Assembly: GCA_965279515.1 (NCBI GenBank)
Contig: CBDIID010000003.1
Span: forward strand, 4,480,001-4,544,000
From: Turneriella sp.
GTDB taxonomy: Bacteria; Spirochaetota; Leptospiria; Turneriellales; Turneriellaceae
Direction: 5' to 3'
DNA length: 64,000 nt
Below, in pieces: positions 26,711 through 48,956 of this stretch (position 1 is the stretch's first letter; every line of letters begins with the position of its first letter). A model generated the notes under the pieces. That model was not told the DNA's origin. It worked only from the letters and a program-made list of their open reading frames with translations, and did not search any database. Made by a program: the position numbers and the translations under genes.

Positions 26711-27586
26711 GTGGCGCTTGCACAAGTATCCTATGCTCCGCTTACGGAGTGCCTAAGCGCTGAAAAGCGCGCGCAGCTCGACGCCTTCGGCGATCTGCTC
26801 CTTAACGAAGCAATGCCAGCCGGCTTTATCGGCGATTGCAGCCGCGCCGATCTTGACCTGCGTCACATACTCGATTCCATTTTACCGGCTGTTGCGCCTG
26901 AGTCGAAACCCGATTTCCCGCTGAACGGGGCGAAGGCTCTCCAGGTCTTTGATCTCGGCGCGGGGGCGGGCCTGCCATCGCTGCCGCTCGCGATTCTTTT
27001 TCCGCAGCATACCTTTCACCTTTTAGACGCGCAGGAAAAGCGCTGCCGTTTTGCCATCGCCGCGGCAGAAAAGCTGGGATTATCCAACGTGAAGGTCTAC
27101 CACGGCGTTGTGCAGGATTTCGCCGAAAAACACGGTGCCCATCTCAAGGCCGATGTGGTGATCTTCCGCGCCTTCCGCAAAATACTTGCTTCACTGGAGC
27201 TGGCGCTCCACGTGATAGCAGATCAGCAGCGGCCTGCATCCGAAAAATCCGGAGGGCCTCGGAGTTTGCAAGAGCAAACTCCTGCTAAAGCGCCCGAAGC
27301 GGGCTGCCCTCCGGATTTTTCGGAGCCGCTGCGATCTTCGGCGCTTGCAGAGCAAGCGCCGAAAGTGCTTTACTGGCGGTCTCAAAGCGTACCTTTTTCT
27401 GAAGCGGGATTAAAACGCGTGGCAGATTTGGGATACACCATCGATACATTCGTGAAATTCGCGTCGGCTGAGAATATTTTGCCGCGCGGCCTCTATACCT
27501 TTGCCAAGAGAAAATCCGCCATGAAGCCATACCCGCGCTCGTGGAAAAAGATTTCCGCCGACAAGCTGGTGGAGACCGAATCATGA
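26711..27586 (+). CDS. rsmG: 16S rRNA m7G527 methyltransferase carrying an approx. 48-aa internal insertion
   Basis: [28 protein letters not shown]; sits upstream of parA-parB. Confidence 0.9.
27220..27363. mobile_element. Palindromic multi-hairpin element inserted in-frame in rsmG
   Basis: Perfect 19-bp stem TCCGAAAAATCCGGAGGGC/GCCCTCCGGATTTTTCGGA, outer GCAGCGGC/GCCGCTGC, two inner hairpins and a trailing 12-bp hairpin. Confidence 0.75.
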
Positions 27587-46149: not shown

Positions 46150-47451
46150 TTAGCGGCCCGCTAAAAATTTGCTGACGTCTGCCACGCGGCAAATGCGTCC
46201 TTTATCTTTGAGGTTCTTAAGCCCAGCCGGTACCGGCAGCTTCGCTTTTTCGATGAGGGCGCAGGTCTCTTTGACGCCGCCAAAGAGATCGACCCAGCCC
46301 GAGGCGGGCAGCCAAGAGAAGCCCGACGACATGACTCGGTCGATACCGTGGATGCCATCCTTTTCAGGCGTCACTTCGCCGATGCGCGCAAAGCTGTAGG
46401 CGACATAGCCCAGAATGAAGTGGCGTACGATTTCGCCTTCTTCGCCGGGGGCTGTCTTGATGAGTTTGATGGCGTCCGCGTACATGCCATCCTGGATCGC
46501 GGCCTTGGTCTTCTGCACCCAGTCAATTTTCTCTTTTTTCGTCGGTGCGAATGTCAGATCGGCGATGTTGAGCGTGGTCTTATTCTTTTCCGCGTCGCGG
46601 TTAAAATAGCCGCCTTTGCCCTTCGCCTTGCGGCCGAGCATGCCCTGGTCCATCATGCGCTGCATGTAAGCAGGCATCTTGTAGGTATCGATACGTTCGT
46701 CTTTGACGTTCGCCACAACGTTGTCGACGATCGCCTTATGCACGTCGAGGCCGACGAGGTCAATCGTCGCGAGCGGGGCGAGCGCCCGGCCCGTGTATGG
46801 CCCGAGCAGGTAATCCATCTTATCAACGCCGTATTTCTCGGCATAGATCGCCGCTTCGTTGAGGAACTGGAAGCCGATACGGTTACCCGCAAACGCCGCA
46901 GTATCTTCGGTGATGATGTTCACACGGCGCAGTACCTTTTCGCAGAAGTCGTAGACGAATTCGCGTGTTTCGGCGGGCACCTCAGGGTGAAAGATCAGCT
47001 CGTTGGCGGGCAGTTTGCCGGGGGGATTATAAAAGTGCGTGCCCATGAAATTCTTGCGGAAATTATCGTTTCTGCCTTCGCCCATTTTACGGATCGAGAG
47101 GCCTGAAGAAACGGTACTGACGATCGCATCGGGTTTTTTGAGTTTTTCGATCTTGGCGAAAAACTCATTCTTGATCGCCATGTCTTCGGCCAAACCTTCA
47201 AAAATCCAGTCGCACGAGGGAATCTCTTTCTCAAGATCGTCGTAGCTCGCCGCCTTGATGTATTTCCTGAGCACGTCGGAACGTGCCTGCCCCACAGCGG
47301 CTTCAAGCCCCGCGGTCGCCTTGTCGAGGGAGCGCGCAAAGAAAACGCATTCAATATCAGCCTGTGCGAAGATACCGCCAGACAAGGAACCCATGTTCCC
47401 GGAAGCCCCTAAAACTCCAACTTTCTTGATGATTCGACTCGATTTAGCCAT
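46150..47451 (-). CDS. 3-hydroxyacyl-CoA dehydrogenase
   Basis: VLGASGNMG, E.LAED..IK, GTHFYNPP, FAGNRI, DLVGLDV; SD AAGGAG. Confidence 0.9.
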   Translation of the reverse strand: MAKSSRIIKKVGVLGASGNMGSLSGGIFAQADIECVFFARSLDKATAGLEAAVGQARSDVLRKYIKAASYDDLEKEIPSCDWIFEGLAEDMAIKNEFFAKIEKLKKPDAIVSTVSSGLSIRKMGEGRNDNFRKNFMGTHFYNPPGKLPANELIFHPEVPAETREFVYDFCEKVLRRVNIITEDTAAFAGNRIGFQFLNEAAIYAEKYGVDKMDYLLGPYTGRALAPLATIDLVGLDVHKAIVDNVVANVKDERIDTYKMPAYMQRMMDQGMLGRKAKGKGGYFNRDAEKNKTTLNIADLTFAPTKKEKIDWVQKTKAAIQDGMYADAIKLIKTAPGEEGEIVRHFILGYVAYSFARIGEVTPEKDGIHGIDRVMSSGFSWLPASGWVDLFGGVKETCALIEKAKLPVPAGLKNLKDKGRICRVADVSKFLAGR

Positions 47452-47572
47452 GTTTACTCCTTTTATTTGAGGCCATTTTTTACCTCAAAGCTCATTTCGG
47501 CTCGCCTAAGTGCGGCTTTTGAACAGACCGACAAGCAAAACCCAGGTAGTTTCCTGACAAGGAAACTGCCGG

Positions 47573-47732
47573 GCTGGCCCCCGGAACCGAAAAAGTGAAA
47601 AGCAGCAAAGTCGCTTGGCTGCCAAGCGACGACGCGCTTTAGCAGTCGTTTGGCTTTGCAAACGACGCGACCCGTCTTAGGGTCTCCGCCTCGGCGGCTT
47701 TTCGCTTTTTCGGTATTTTTTCCGGGGCCAGC
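47573..47732. mobile_element. Intergenic multi-branch palindromic element related to the rsmG insertion (opposite orientation)
   Basis: Long closing stems, four inner hairpins, shared GTTTGCAA-N3-CAAAC-N3-TGCTAAAGCGC core on the minus strand. Confidence 0.75.
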
Positions 47733-47735
47733 GTC

Positions 47736-48956
47736 TTATGCAGGGCTGAGCACTGGTCGACCGGGGCGGAAGTAATAGAATGCCCAGACCAATGATATGG
47801 CGGCAATCCCCGCCACACCGGCGATTACCGGTATATTAGCATAGCGCGTCGCATAGGCCGCAAAGGCGACATTGAGGCCCATGCGGATGACCTCTGAGGG
47901 CAAGAGCCATCTTTTAGCTTCGAGTATGCCCGCCCAGTTGATGATACTGTGCCAGAGTAGGGCGGCACCCACCCATTTCAGCTCATACGAAAGCGGTGAT
48001 TTGGGAGAGATTACCAGCAGCATCAGTACCGCCGTCAAAATCACCTGCACGACGATATAGGTTTTCGCGCCGTCAAACATCGGCGAAGCAAAACGCTGCT
48101 GGTTCTTCTCGGTAATCTCGGGTGGCAGTGGTTTCATGCCCTCGGGCGACCAGCTGAGCGGCATAAACCAGATACGGATTTTATCCCACCAGCTTTTCGC
48201 CTTCAGCATGTCTTTGAAGATCAGTACATAGTAGTGGAAATTGATTTTGATGGGGTCAAACGACTTGGGGTGGCTGTACATCCCATAGACGACCTTTTCT
48301 TTTTCTTCGGCGAAACTGCCGAACATGCGGTCCCAGATAATCAGAAACTCGCCGAAATTTTTATCGAGGTACTGGTAATTGACGCCGTGGTGTACGCGGT
48401 GGTGCGAGGGTGTCGTGAAAATAAACTCAATTGGTTTCCAGAGTTTGGGAATAAACTCAGTGTGGTGCAGAAATGAAATGAAGAGATGCAGCGCCGTCAT
48501 GGTATAGATATCGAACGGCGTGAAACCCACCAGTGTCAATGGCCAGAAAAAGAAAAAGGAAAACAGGCGCTGCGTGACGCTGGCCCTCAGGGCCACCATA
48601 AAATTCATCTCTTCGGCGGAGTGGTGGGGCGAGTGCGCGGCCCACATGATTTTCATATGGTGGCCCCAGCGGTGCACCCAGTAAAAGATGAAGTCCACAC
48701 CCAGAAGCAGCAAAATAAAGTTCACGGCGTTCATTTCCAGCGGGCCAGCGATACGGTAATTCGCATGCAGCCAGCCATAGACCTCGTAGACGCCGGCGGC
48801 AACGAGCAGGTTGACGGTCTGGTTGCCGAGGGCGGTACCGAAGTTGGCCACGGCTTCCTGGAAACGGATATACTTCCGCTTGAAAATAAAACAGGCGGCG
48901 ATTTCGAGCAATACAAAGAAGATCGCGATCGGGGTCAGTAATGCGTAGATGTTCAT
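47736..48956 (-). CDS. Sterol desaturase / alkylglycerol monooxygenase-like protein (paralog of 38318)
   Basis: His boxes YWVHRWGH, HSPHHS, FLHHT, TPSHHRVHH. Confidence 0.9.
   Translation of the reverse strand: MNIYALLTPIAIFFVLLEIAACFIFKRKYIRFQEAVANFGTALGNQTVNLLVAAGVYEVYGWLHANYRIAGPLEMNAVNFILLLLGVDFIFYWVHRWGHHMKIMWAAHSPHHSAEEMNFMVALRASVTQRLFSFFFFWPLTLVGFTPFDIYTMTALHLFISFLHHTEFIPKLWKPIEFIFTTPSHHRVHHGVNYQYLDKNFGEFLIIWDRMFGSFAEEKEKVVYGMYSHPKSFDPIKINFHYYVLIFKDMLKAKSWWDKIRIWFMPLSWSPEGMKPLPPEITEKNQQRFASPMFDGAKTYIVVQVILTAVLMLLVISPKSPLSYELKWVGAALLWHSIINWAGILEAKRWLLPSEVIRMGLNVAFAAYATRYANIPVIAGVAGIAAISLVWAFYYFRPGRPVLSPA

What the first reader, a model, noticed from the sequence alone, without database searches (positions are those of the whole stretch)
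47573..47732. Intergenic multi-branch element homologous to the rsmG insert, with compensatory base changes
Seen: closing stems GCTGGCCCCCGGAA/TTCCGGGGCCAGC and ACCGAAAAAGTGAAAAGC/GCTTTTCGCTTTTTCGGT enclose four hairpins (47610-47630, 47645-47666, 47669-47684, 47686-47697). The reverse complement reads GTCGTTTGCAAAGCCAAACGAC-TGCTAAAGCGC, versus GGAGTTTGCAAGAGCAAACTCC-TGCTAAAGCGC in rsmG. The stem ends covary (GTC/GAC vs GGA/TCC) while the adjacent 11-mer is identical. Both copies also share a CCGAAAAA/TTTTTCGG stem and a G.CGCTTG..CAAGCG.C hairpin that covaries too. Inference: a structured RNA or ssDNA family selected for fold plus a fixed recognition motif, such as a REP/MITE-like substrate of an HUH transposase or an undescribed ncRNA. 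This is the best candidate for an undescribed system in the window.
Basis: partly seen in the sequence, partly recalled or inferred. Interest (0 to 1): 0.85.

Follow-up and report, generated by a model that had tools for sequence, protein, structure and literature searches.

The report
Branched palindromic mobile repeat family
This intergenic cluster of hairpins is one copy of a small non-coding mobile repeat found dozens of times per genome in Turneriella-like spirochaetes; its branched centre keeps the same unpaired bases while its stems change in step.

Summary
Window 47573-47732 is a nested set of inverted repeats around four hairpins. It shares the hairpin plus TGCTAAAGCGC module with an in-frame insert in rsmG (about 27216-27363).

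It is a family, not a pair. A covariance model finds 32 loci in this genome and 5-49 matches in each of 13 congeneric genomes. It finds a few in three other genera of the order, and none in 27 genomes of a sister family or 150 other genomes of the phylum. No Rfam family matches.

The core is a three-way junction (five-way in this copy). Its unpaired bases are invariant (CUC, UGCUAAAGC, U) and its stems covary: 94-96% of cells are paired, and 19 of 24 pairs show double changes.

Copies are present or absent at orthologous sites. One relative holds near-identical copies with 23-nt terminal inverted repeats and 7-8-bp direct repeats. The finding's ~195-nt subfamily has ends matching an IS5-family insertion sequence at 19 of 22 bases.

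It is therefore a MITE-like mobile repeat. A RAYT/HUH link is not supported: 0 of 12 Y1-transposase loci carry it.

Three things remain unexplained: the invariant junction, the pairing kept in orthologous copies, and a mismatch skew towards one strand. No RNA data were available.

The parts
47542..47573 (-). Small terminal hairpin ('unit 2') that follows the branched part in this subfamily. In fresher copies it reads as two IS-like ends placed back to back.
   Evidence: Inverted repeat I2; fold; same position in 20+ subfamily copies.
47573..47586 (-). 3' arm (in family orientation) of the outer stem S0, a degenerate terminal-inverted-repeat-like sequence.
   Evidence: I3; aligned with the subfamily consensus ends.
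47719..47732 (-). 5' arm of the outer stem S0. It starts 3 nt after the TAA stop (47738-47736) of the fatty-acid-hydroxylase-like ORF.
47586..47603 (-). 3' arm of helix P1.
   Evidence: I1; fold; family model.
47697..47714 (-). 5' arm of helix P1.
   Evidence: I1; fold.
47604..47633 (-). Helix P3 with its long extension hairpin (47610-47630).
   Evidence: I4. The same long form occurs in copies at C3 853.9k, 2245.6k, 2309.7k and 3053.8k. The extension is present or absent between orthologous copies.
47634..47644 (-). Invariant junction motif: TGCTAAAGCGC on the - strand, GCGCTTTAGCA on the + strand.
   Evidence: Near-invariant in 104 unique copies.
47645..47666 (-). Helix P2 hairpin.
   Evidence: I10; covariation in 7 of 9 pairs.
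47669..47697 (-). Two extra hairpins (47669-47684 and 47686-47697) between P1 and P2. They make this copy a five-way junction.
   Evidence: Fold. The same variant occurs at C3 3509.3k and 402.9k and in three loci of a congener (L212, L230, L231). This copy scores only 28.3 bits with the three-way model.
27216..27363 (+). Second copy in the window: a complete element inserted in frame in rsmG. The core three-way junction is 27248-27315 and the motif is 27283-27293.
   Evidence: It is absent from the rsmG of 9 aligned congeners and present in one.

Best explanation
The feature is one old, diverged copy of a lineage-restricted family of small non-coding palindromic mobile repeats of the MITE kind.

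Shown:
- The family is dispersed, with 32 loci in this genome, and is restricted to one order of spirochaetes.
- Copies are present or absent at orthologous sites.
- One insertion lies in frame in rsmG.
- A young subfamily in a relative has terminal inverted repeats and 7-8-bp direct repeats.
- All copies share a central three-way junction: P1, CUC, P2, UGCUAAAGC, P3, U, P1'. The junction bases are invariant and the stems covary.

Inferred:
- The finding's ~195-nt subfamily is, or was, moved in trans by an IS5-family DDE transposase. Its ends resemble that IS's ends and it sits at TAG/TAA sites. This would explain why copies abut stop codons and can even supply one.
- Pairing of the arms is kept after insertion by a pairing-dependent process. 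This could be selection on a folded single strand, or arm-to-arm template switching in quasi-palindromes. The second mechanism is recalled from the literature, not tested here.

Unknown: what the invariant junction does. My best guess is that it is read as a folded single strand of the GCGCTTTAGCA strand (RNA or ssDNA), by a host or element protein.
For: Family size and spread:
- 32 loci at E <= 0.003 in the window's genome.
- 13 of 13 other genomes of the genus carry it, with 5-49 matches each. So do 1 of 6 genomes of other genera in the family and 2 of 14 genomes of other families of the order. 0 of 27 genomes of a sister family carry it.
- 0 of 150 other genomes of the phylum.

Structure:
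- 96.0% of 1271 cells are paired, against 33-48% when the partner is slid. 19 of 24 pairs show double changes.
- A MAFFT-only alignment gives the same picture: 95.8% paired and 14 of 24 pairs with double changes. A second set gives 94.5%.

Mobility:
- The rsmG insert is present in G000 and G011 and lacking in 9 aligned congeners.
- The locus of the copy at C3 3336.8k holds 34-64 nt in four syntenic relatives, against about 155 nt here.
- Two G011 copies lie at sites that are empty in G000.
- Of 12 G011 copies whose flanks map within 800 nt of each other in G000, only 4 have a G000 copy there.
- A copy is 91% identical between species whose flanking gene is 73-77% identical.
- Eight distinct loci of one relative carry a 97%-identical ~155-nt unit with 23-nt terminal inverted repeats. 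Five of them also have 7-8-nt direct repeats, two of these exact 8/8.

IS link:
- A frameshifted IS with DUF772 and DDE_Tnp_1 domains lies at C3 93274-94531.
- Its left end matches the subfamily's end at 19 of 22 bases and its right end at 16 of 20. It has TAG on both flanks.
- 6 of 18 scored subfamily copies have TAG/TAG (5 copies) or TAA/TAA (1 copy) on both flanks.
- In one relative the element's terminal TAA serves as the stop codon of a truncated gene.
Against: - DUF772-type transposases were found in only 2 of 14 genomes of the genus, while the repeat is in all 14. The genome with the most copies (49 matches, 99% complete) has none.
- The TAG/TAA flanks also pair within the element's own palindrome, so they may be part of it rather than target duplications. 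12 of 18 scored copies lack matching flanks, and 6 of 24 examined copies could not be scored.
- No target duplication could be read from the filled/empty site comparisons, because the intergenic DNA is too diverged.
- A DDE transposase needs only the ends. It explains neither the invariant junction, nor the same core inside repeats with unrelated ends, nor compensated changes between orthologous copies.
- It also does not explain the excess of A.C over G.T mismatches: 51 vs 17 in 104 unique copies, and 40 vs 16 after clustering into 35 groups.
- No transposase lies within 1.5 kb of any copy examined.
Confidence: 0.6

Rival explanations
1. The core three-way junction is a functional structured RNA: a protein-binding RNA, a cis-acting 3'-end or stability element, or a small ribozyme. 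The mobile repeats merely spread it, and selection on the RNA keeps the junction bases and the pairing.
For: - The junction bases are invariant while all three stems covary.
- Orthologous copies in rsmG keep pairing through at least 5 compensated double changes, with identical junction bases. A second orthologous pair shows 4 more.
- Mismatches are skewed to the type that would be G.U on the GCGCTTTAGCA strand: 51 vs 17, and 22 vs 1 in P2.
- The same core is carried by repeats with unrelated ends.
- No Rfam family matches, so it would be new.
Against: - G.U pairs are very rare on either strand: 0.7% and 2.2% of 2302 cells.
- Terminal loops follow no RNA-typical pattern.
- Orientation is unbiased towards neighbouring genes: 8 co-directional vs 9 opposite in tandem contexts (rough ORF calls).
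- No promoter-like site was found at the finding's copy.
- No RNA data exist. The only runs that hold the locus are DNA.
- Detection by a model that requires the motif inflates the apparent invariance.
Confidence: 0.22
2. The folded single-stranded DNA of the core is the substrate of a structure-specific recombinase, such as an HUH/Y1 enzyme (IS200/IS605 or RAYT type) or an attC-like tyrosine-recombinase system.
For: - The arrangement is two hairpins separated by a fixed 9-11-nt linker and flanked by fixed short words.
- The fold is conserved while the stem sequence varies.
- There is a strand asymmetry of mismatches.
- Y1_Tnp genes are present in 10 of 13 congeners.
Against: - The single Y1_Tnp gene of this genome is flanked by a different palindrome.
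- 0 of 12 Y1_Tnp loci hold a copy.
- Y1_Tnp was not found in the three element-bearing genomes outside the genus, and it is present in 10 of 44 genomes without the element.
- There is no replication-strand bias (18 vs 15).
- Copies are dispersed singly, not in cassette arrays.
- One subfamily has classical inverted ends with 7-8-bp direct repeats, which HUH transposition does not make (recalled).
Confidence: 0.08
3. The elements are simply elaborate intrinsic, possibly bidirectional, transcription terminators that diversified in place. They are not mobile DNA.
For: - Many copies lie just after stop codons or between convergent genes: 16 of 52 contexts are convergent.
- Several outer stems are framed by A-runs and T-runs.
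- At one orthologous site the other species has a plain terminator-like hairpin instead.
Against: - Copies also occur inside ORFs (5 of 52) and between divergent genes (11 of 52).
- There are insertion polymorphisms, inverted ends with direct repeats, and near-identical copies at unrelated loci.
- Copies are more alike between species than the flanking genes are.
- Only weak terminator-like hits were found at the finding's copy.
Confidence: 0.07
4. The resemblance between the two places in the window is chance.
For: The 11-mer alone is not enriched in the window.
Against: 32 model matches in the genome with E down to 6e-20, hundreds in relatives, and covariation far above the controls.
Confidence: 0.01

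Closest known systems
MITEs derived from IS5-family insertion sequences
   Same: - Small, non-coding and dispersed, with inverted ends like those of an IS5-family IS in the same genome (19 of 22 bases).
- Lies at TAG/TAA, mostly intergenic, and is present or absent at orthologous sites.
- A 2024 census reports many MITEs in Leptospirales. I read passages of the main text of PMC11602168.
   Different: - The centre is a conserved multi-branch junction with invariant unpaired bases, which a DDE transposase does not need.
- The same centre occurs with unrelated ends.
- The partner transposase family was not found in 12 of 14 genomes of the genus.
- Turneriella is not named in the census's main text, and its supplement could not be read.
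REP / REPIN elements with their RAYT (Y1) transposase
   Same: Short palindromic extragenic repeats, with compensated changes in hairpins, many copies, and a single-copy Y1 gene in the genome. Compensatory evolution in REPINs is recalled from the literature, not read here.
   Different: The Y1 gene here is flanked by a different palindrome, and no copy of this family lies next to any of 12 Y1 loci. These elements are longer and branched.
Rickettsia palindromic elements (RPE)
   Same: A palindromic repeat inserted in frame in a housekeeping gene and kept as extra peptide. Here that is about 41 extra residues in a variable loop of RsmG, shared by two species. The features of RPEs are recalled, not read here.
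   Different: The lineage is different and sequence relation was not tested. Only 1 of the 32 loci in this genome is the intact in-frame rsmG insert; the other four 'inside ORF' calls come from rough ORF calling.
Integron attC sites
   Same: A conserved fold with variable stem sequence, fixed unpaired bases, and evidence that one strand matters. The properties of attC are recalled.
   Different: No cassette arrays; copies are dispersed singly. The attC end motifs were not looked for systematically, and no integrase link was examined.
Three-way-junction self-cleaving ribozymes (hammerhead type) carried by repeats
   Same: Three helices around a junction with about 13 fixed unpaired bases, many copies per genome, carried by mobile DNA.
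   Different: No Rfam ribozyme or other family matches, even at E <= 10. The order and sequence of the junction strands differ from the hammerhead (recalled). G.U pairs are nearly absent, and no cleavage test was done.

Membership tests
MITE (non-autonomous DNA transposon) | Small (under about 500 bp), no coding capacity of its own, many dispersed copies | tested here: met
   Units are 60-200 nt. There are 32 loci in this genome and 5-49 matches in each congener.
MITE (non-autonomous DNA transposon) | Terminal inverted repeats | tested here: met
   The subfamily of the finding has ends related by inversion. A subfamily in a relative has 23-nt inverted ends. In the finding's own copy the ends are degenerate.
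MITE (non-autonomous DNA transposon) | Target-site duplication | tested here: inconclusive
   Direct repeats of 7-8 nt occur at 5 of 8 loci of the young subfamily in a relative. For the finding's subfamily, TAG/TAG or TAA/TAA occurs in 6 of 18 scored copies, but these bases also pair within the element. Filled/empty comparisons could not be aligned at the junctions.
MITE (non-autonomous DNA transposon) | Ends shared with an autonomous IS | tested here: met
   The left end matches at 19 of 22 bases and the right end at 16 of 20 bases with the IS at C3 93274-94531, which has DUF772 and DDE_Tnp_1 domains and is frameshifted. Caveat: this transposase family was found in only 2 of 14 genomes of the genus.
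MITE (non-autonomous DNA transposon) | Insertion polymorphism at orthologous sites | tested here: met
   rsmG; the C3 3336.8k locus; two G011 loci that are empty in G000.
REP/REPIN-RAYT system | Repeats flank the single-copy Y1 (RAYT) gene | tested here: not met
   The Y1 gene is flanked by a different 38-nt palindrome. There are 0 model matches in 12 Y1 loci.
IS200/IS605-derived palindromic elements | Strand-specific insertion, giving an orientation bias relative to replication | tested here: not met
   18 vs 15 copies by GC-skew replichores. The replichore assignment from skew alone is rough.
Any Rfam 15 RNA family (riboswitches, ribozymes, sRNAs, known repeat-RNA motifs) | Match to the family's covariance model | tested here: not met
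   0 matches at gathering score in the whole window. 0 matches at E <= 10 on 8 core copies. Only chance-level hits, 12-17 bits against cut-offs of 33-82, on the finding's region.
Rickettsia palindromic element-like in-frame repeats | In-frame insertion in a conserved protein-coding gene that stays open | tested here: met
   The rsmG ORF of 291 aa is open through the insert. The insert is shared with G011 and absent in 9 aligned congeners. This is a likeness of behaviour only; homology to RPEs was not tested.
Structured non-coding RNA gene | Transcribed as a discrete RNA | not testable with these tools
   Only DNA runs hold the locus, and contigs cannot show RNA.

The most novel reading that the evidence does not exclude
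The invariant junction is a new structured nucleic-acid motif in its own right. It would be a folded single strand of the GCGCTTTAGCA strand (RNA or ssDNA), read by a still unknown protein or acting catalytically. It would have been captured by at least two unrelated kinds of MITE in the Turneriella lineage. It would be kept by selection after insertion, even inside the coding sequence of rsmG.
Probability: 0.25. Interest if true: 0.8.

Novelty: new variant of a known kind. Interest (0 to 1): 0.5.

Why it matters
It adds a well-defined repeat family to a poorly studied free-living spirochaete lineage, with a model that finds it. I could find no description of it in Rfam 15 or in the papers I could search.

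It explains an odd 40-residue insert in RsmG, and why hairpin clusters sit right after stop codons in these genomes.

The unusual part is that selection, or a correction process, keeps a branched fold and about 13 unpaired bases constant. This holds across subfamilies with different ends and in orthologous copies. That makes the family a convenient natural system to ask whether palindromic mobile DNA is maintained at the DNA level or at the RNA level. A cultured relative exists to test it.

If the core proves to be a functional RNA or ssDNA site, it would be a new motif class spread by MITEs.

Tried and rejected
- **Rfam.** Gathering scan of the window and E <= 10 scans of 8 cores and of the finding's region: nothing beyond chance.
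- **Earlier notes of this scan**, searched by place, sequence and words: nothing held.
- **Sequencing runs and laying them.** The four runs that hold the stretch are DNA-like contigs that break inside the repeat. The 'skips' at 47605/47606-47696 are other copies of the family laid on this one. There is no RNA evidence either way.
- **Plasmid and phage collections**, blastn distant mode: no match.
- **Literature.**
  - 'Turneriella' plus 'repeats'. The T. parva genome paper was searched for repeat, transposase and insertion and gave only a CRISPR count.
  - MITE plus three-way junction: 0 papers.
  - MITE plus Leptospira, and passages of the 2024 census. Its supplement was unreadable.
  - MITEs plus IS5 family plus secondary structure (listing only).
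  - The 11-mer itself in four spellings: only primers and unrelated sequences.
- **RAYT/HUH partner:** rejected.
- **IS630-type (DDE_3) and IS110-type transposases** in this genome: none found.
- **tblastn of the two IS5-type transposases and the Y1 protein** against all fetched loci: no hit near any copy.
- **Replication-strand bias:** none.
- **Synteny at the finding's own locus.** The two flanking genes are not neighbours in any of the 13 congeners, so no empty site could be read there.
- **Fold energies of the two strands.** The complement strand is more stable in 90 of 104 copies. I set this aside as weak evidence, because the fixed junction and loop sequences alone can cause it.
- **A possible link between the junction's CTGCTA and the identical word at the IS-like end.** This includes one truncated copy, L225, joined exactly there. 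I considered it and left it as a lead; six bases are too few.
- **A first folding script timed out** and was replaced by a lighter one.

Full report
**The observation**

Window 47573-47732 lies between two minus-strand ORFs. One is a 3-hydroxyacyl-CoA-dehydrogenase-like gene (46150-47451). The other is a fatty-acid-hydroxylase-like gene (47736-48956).

The 201 nt around the feature fold far better than shuffles: -116.6 kcal/mol on the + strand (z -11) and -103.3 kcal/mol on the - strand (z -7). The reverse complement carries a hairpin followed by TGCTAAAGCGC. The same 11-mer follows a covarying hairpin at 27283-27293 inside a 291-aa RsmG-like ORF.

**A family, not a pair**

BLAST and motif scans of the whole genome, which is held as G000, showed many more copies. 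From 11 copies aligned by MAFFT I wrote a three-helix structure and built a covariance model. The model finds 32 loci at E <= 0.003 in this genome (34 rows at E <= 1). The finding's own copy scores only 28.3 bits, because two extra hairpins make it a five-way junction.

The common core, read on the strand that carries TGCTAAAGCG, runs in this order:
- P1
- CUC
- P2 (closed by G-C)
- UGCUAAAGC
- P3
- U
- P1'

P3 comes in three forms: a 5-bp hairpin, a 2-bp stub with a 3-nt loop, or the stub plus a 9-bp extension hairpin as in the finding.

**Covariation**

- On 60 model-aligned matches (56 distinct), 96.0% of 1271 cells pair, against 33-48% when partners are slid. 19 of 24 pairs have changes on both sides, and 0 of 500 shuffles reach the score.
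- A second set of 67 matches gives 94.5% paired and again 19 of 24.
- The MAFFT-only seed alignment, which is not fitted to a model, gives 95.8% paired and 14 of 24.
- The junction bases are almost invariant in 104 unique copies. This is inflated to some degree, because detection depends on them.

Wobble pairs are very rare. In 2302 cells there are 17 G.T/T.G and 51 A.C/C.A; in P2 the counts are 1 vs 22. The skew persists after clustering related copies: 46 vs 17 in 64 clusters and 40 vs 16 in 35. It fades to 25 vs 16 in 10 clusters.

A.C on this strand is G.T on the other. If one strand is the folded one, it is therefore the GCGCTTTAGCA strand, which is the window's + strand at the finding.

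**Distribution and prior description**

The model matches:
- all 13 other genomes of the genus (5-49 matches each);
- 1 of 6 genomes of other genera in the family;
- 2 of 14 genomes of other families of the order;
- 0 of 27 genomes of a sister family of the class;
- 0 of 150 further genomes of the phylum.

52 of these match the model at 39 bits or more. Of the 44 matches whose record title was shown, 43 are titled Turneriella, Leptospiraceae, Spirochaetes or Spirochaetota. The exception is an 830-nt contig binned elsewhere. The 36 titled stretches from other phyla do not match. By inference, the window's genome belongs to this Turneriella-like group.

No Rfam 15 family matches. Nothing similar lies in the plasmid or phage collections. 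The papers I could search do not describe the family:
- The T. parva genome paper was searched by terms.
- The 2024 MITE census says only that Leptospirales are rich in MITEs. I read passages of it; its supplement was unreadable.
- Other searches are.

**Mobility**

RsmG of 9 aligned congeners lacks about 41 residues that G000 and G011 have at the same point of a variable loop. The insert is a complete element that stays in frame.

At the locus of the copy at C3 3336.8k, four syntenic relatives have 34-64 nt between the same two genes, where G000 has about 155 nt.

Of 31 G011 copies, 24 had both flanks found in G000. For 12 of those the flanks map within 800 nt of each other, and only 4 of the 12 have a G000 copy at that place. 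Two of the others were aligned and are empty in G000. At one of them the element in G011 replaces the last codons of a gene, and its terminal TAA is the stop.

One subfamily copy is 91% identical between species whose neighbouring gene is 73-77% identical.

In one relative, eight distinct loci carry a ~155-nt unit that is about 97% identical. The unit has 23-nt inverted ends, and five of the loci have 7-8-nt direct repeats.

**The finding's subfamily**

Twenty-six loci of this type were lined up, 6 from G000 and 20 from four relatives. The unit is about 195 nt, in this order:
- TAG;
- an end reading CAGGCTCCGGAAAAAC;
- P1;
- the core;
- P1';
- the inverted end;
- a small hairpin made of two more such ends, again closed by TAG.

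The finding's outer stem is a degenerate version of these ends, and its arms have changed in step.

A frameshifted IS with DUF772 and DDE_Tnp_1 domains lies at C3 93274-94531. By recall I file this domain pair under the IS5 family. Its ends match the subfamily's at 19 of 22 and 16 of 20 bases, and it has TAG on both flanks. A second IS of the family, in five identical copies, ends in CTAG followed by a related word.

Six of 18 scored subfamily copies have TAG/TAG or TAA/TAA on both sides; 6 of 24 copies could not be scored.

Against the link: this transposase family was found in only 2 of 14 genomes of the genus. No transposase lies near any copy. The TAG words also pair within the element.

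**The HUH idea**

The genome has one Y1_Tnp gene. It is flanked on both sides by a different 38-nt perfect palindrome. None of 12 Y1 loci from 12 genomes, nor 4 IS loci, holds a model match. Y1 genes and the repeat do not co-occur outside the genus.

Orientation is unbiased:
- towards replication, 18 vs 15;
- towards neighbouring genes, 8 vs 9 in tandem contexts.

The other contexts are 16 convergent, 11 divergent, 5 inside ORFs and 3 unassigned, out of 52 loci with rough ORF calls.

**What a plain MITE does not explain**

1. The same core sits in units with unrelated ends.
2. Orthologous copies keep pairing. The rsmG copies of G000 and G011 differ by at least 5 compensated double changes, in the outer stem, P1, P2 and the small hairpin, with identical junction bases. 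I read this by eye. The 2667k pair shows 4 more.
3. Hairpin modules come and go. At the 3053k locus the two species differ by a 24-nt hairpin in P3 that equals the P2 hairpin of another copy.
4. The mismatch skew towards one strand.

These could come from selection on a folded single strand. They could also come from arm-to-arm template switching in quasi-palindromes, a mechanism I recall from the literature. Template switching would give Watson-Crick-only covariation without any function, but not the skew.

**Verdict**

It is a lineage-restricted family of branched palindromic mobile repeats, MITE-like in behaviour. For this subfamily it is tied, by inference, to IS5-type ends.

I put 0.6 on that reading. 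It does not say what the junction does. I put about 0.2-0.25 on the core being a functional RNA or ssDNA motif in its own right. No expression data could be had: the only runs holding the locus are DNA contigs. The decisive tests are therefore experimental.

Noticed in passing
G000:C3:2616137-2616538 (outside the window; locus L232 1445-1904 and 2539-2576): A single Y1_Tnp (IS200/RAYT-like, 134 aa) gene is flanked on both sides by a 38-nt perfect palindrome, with a third copy about 670 nt downstream. The palindrome's 14-nt centre occurs only twice in the genome at <=1 mismatch.
   Followed up: partly
G000:C3 about 120.7k, 454.1k, 693.9k, 4312.4k, 4593.7k (loci L237-L241): An intact IS5-family insertion sequence of about 1249 bp is present in five identical copies, each bounded by CTAG.
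   Followed up: partly
G000:C3:93274-94531 (locus L233 575-1832): A single IS5-family IS has its transposase split by a frameshift into 218-aa and 148-aa ORFs. Its ends resemble those of the finding's repeat subfamily.
   Followed up: yes
G000 contig C2 (19790 nt): The same 14-mer hits positions 1631, 8257 and 14883, a period of 6626 nt. The contig looks like about three tandem copies of a 6.6-kb unit, perhaps a small circular replicon assembled as a concatemer.
   Followed up: no
window 46900-48400: The two genes that flank the finding are not neighbours in any of the 13 congeners. The hydroxylase-like gene maps elsewhere in their genomes, so the repeat sits at a break of synteny.
   Followed up: partly
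locus L291 (G011), compared with G000:C3:1168053-1168226: In a congener, a copy of the repeat replaces the last codons of a gene, and its terminal TAA serves as the stop codon. The G000 orthologue runs 8 codons further and has no repeat.
   Followed up: partly
locus L225 (G002): A truncated copy in which the junction word CTGCTA runs straight into the terminal small hairpin. P3, P1' and the inverted end are missing. This looks like a deletion between two identical 6-nt words.
   Followed up: no
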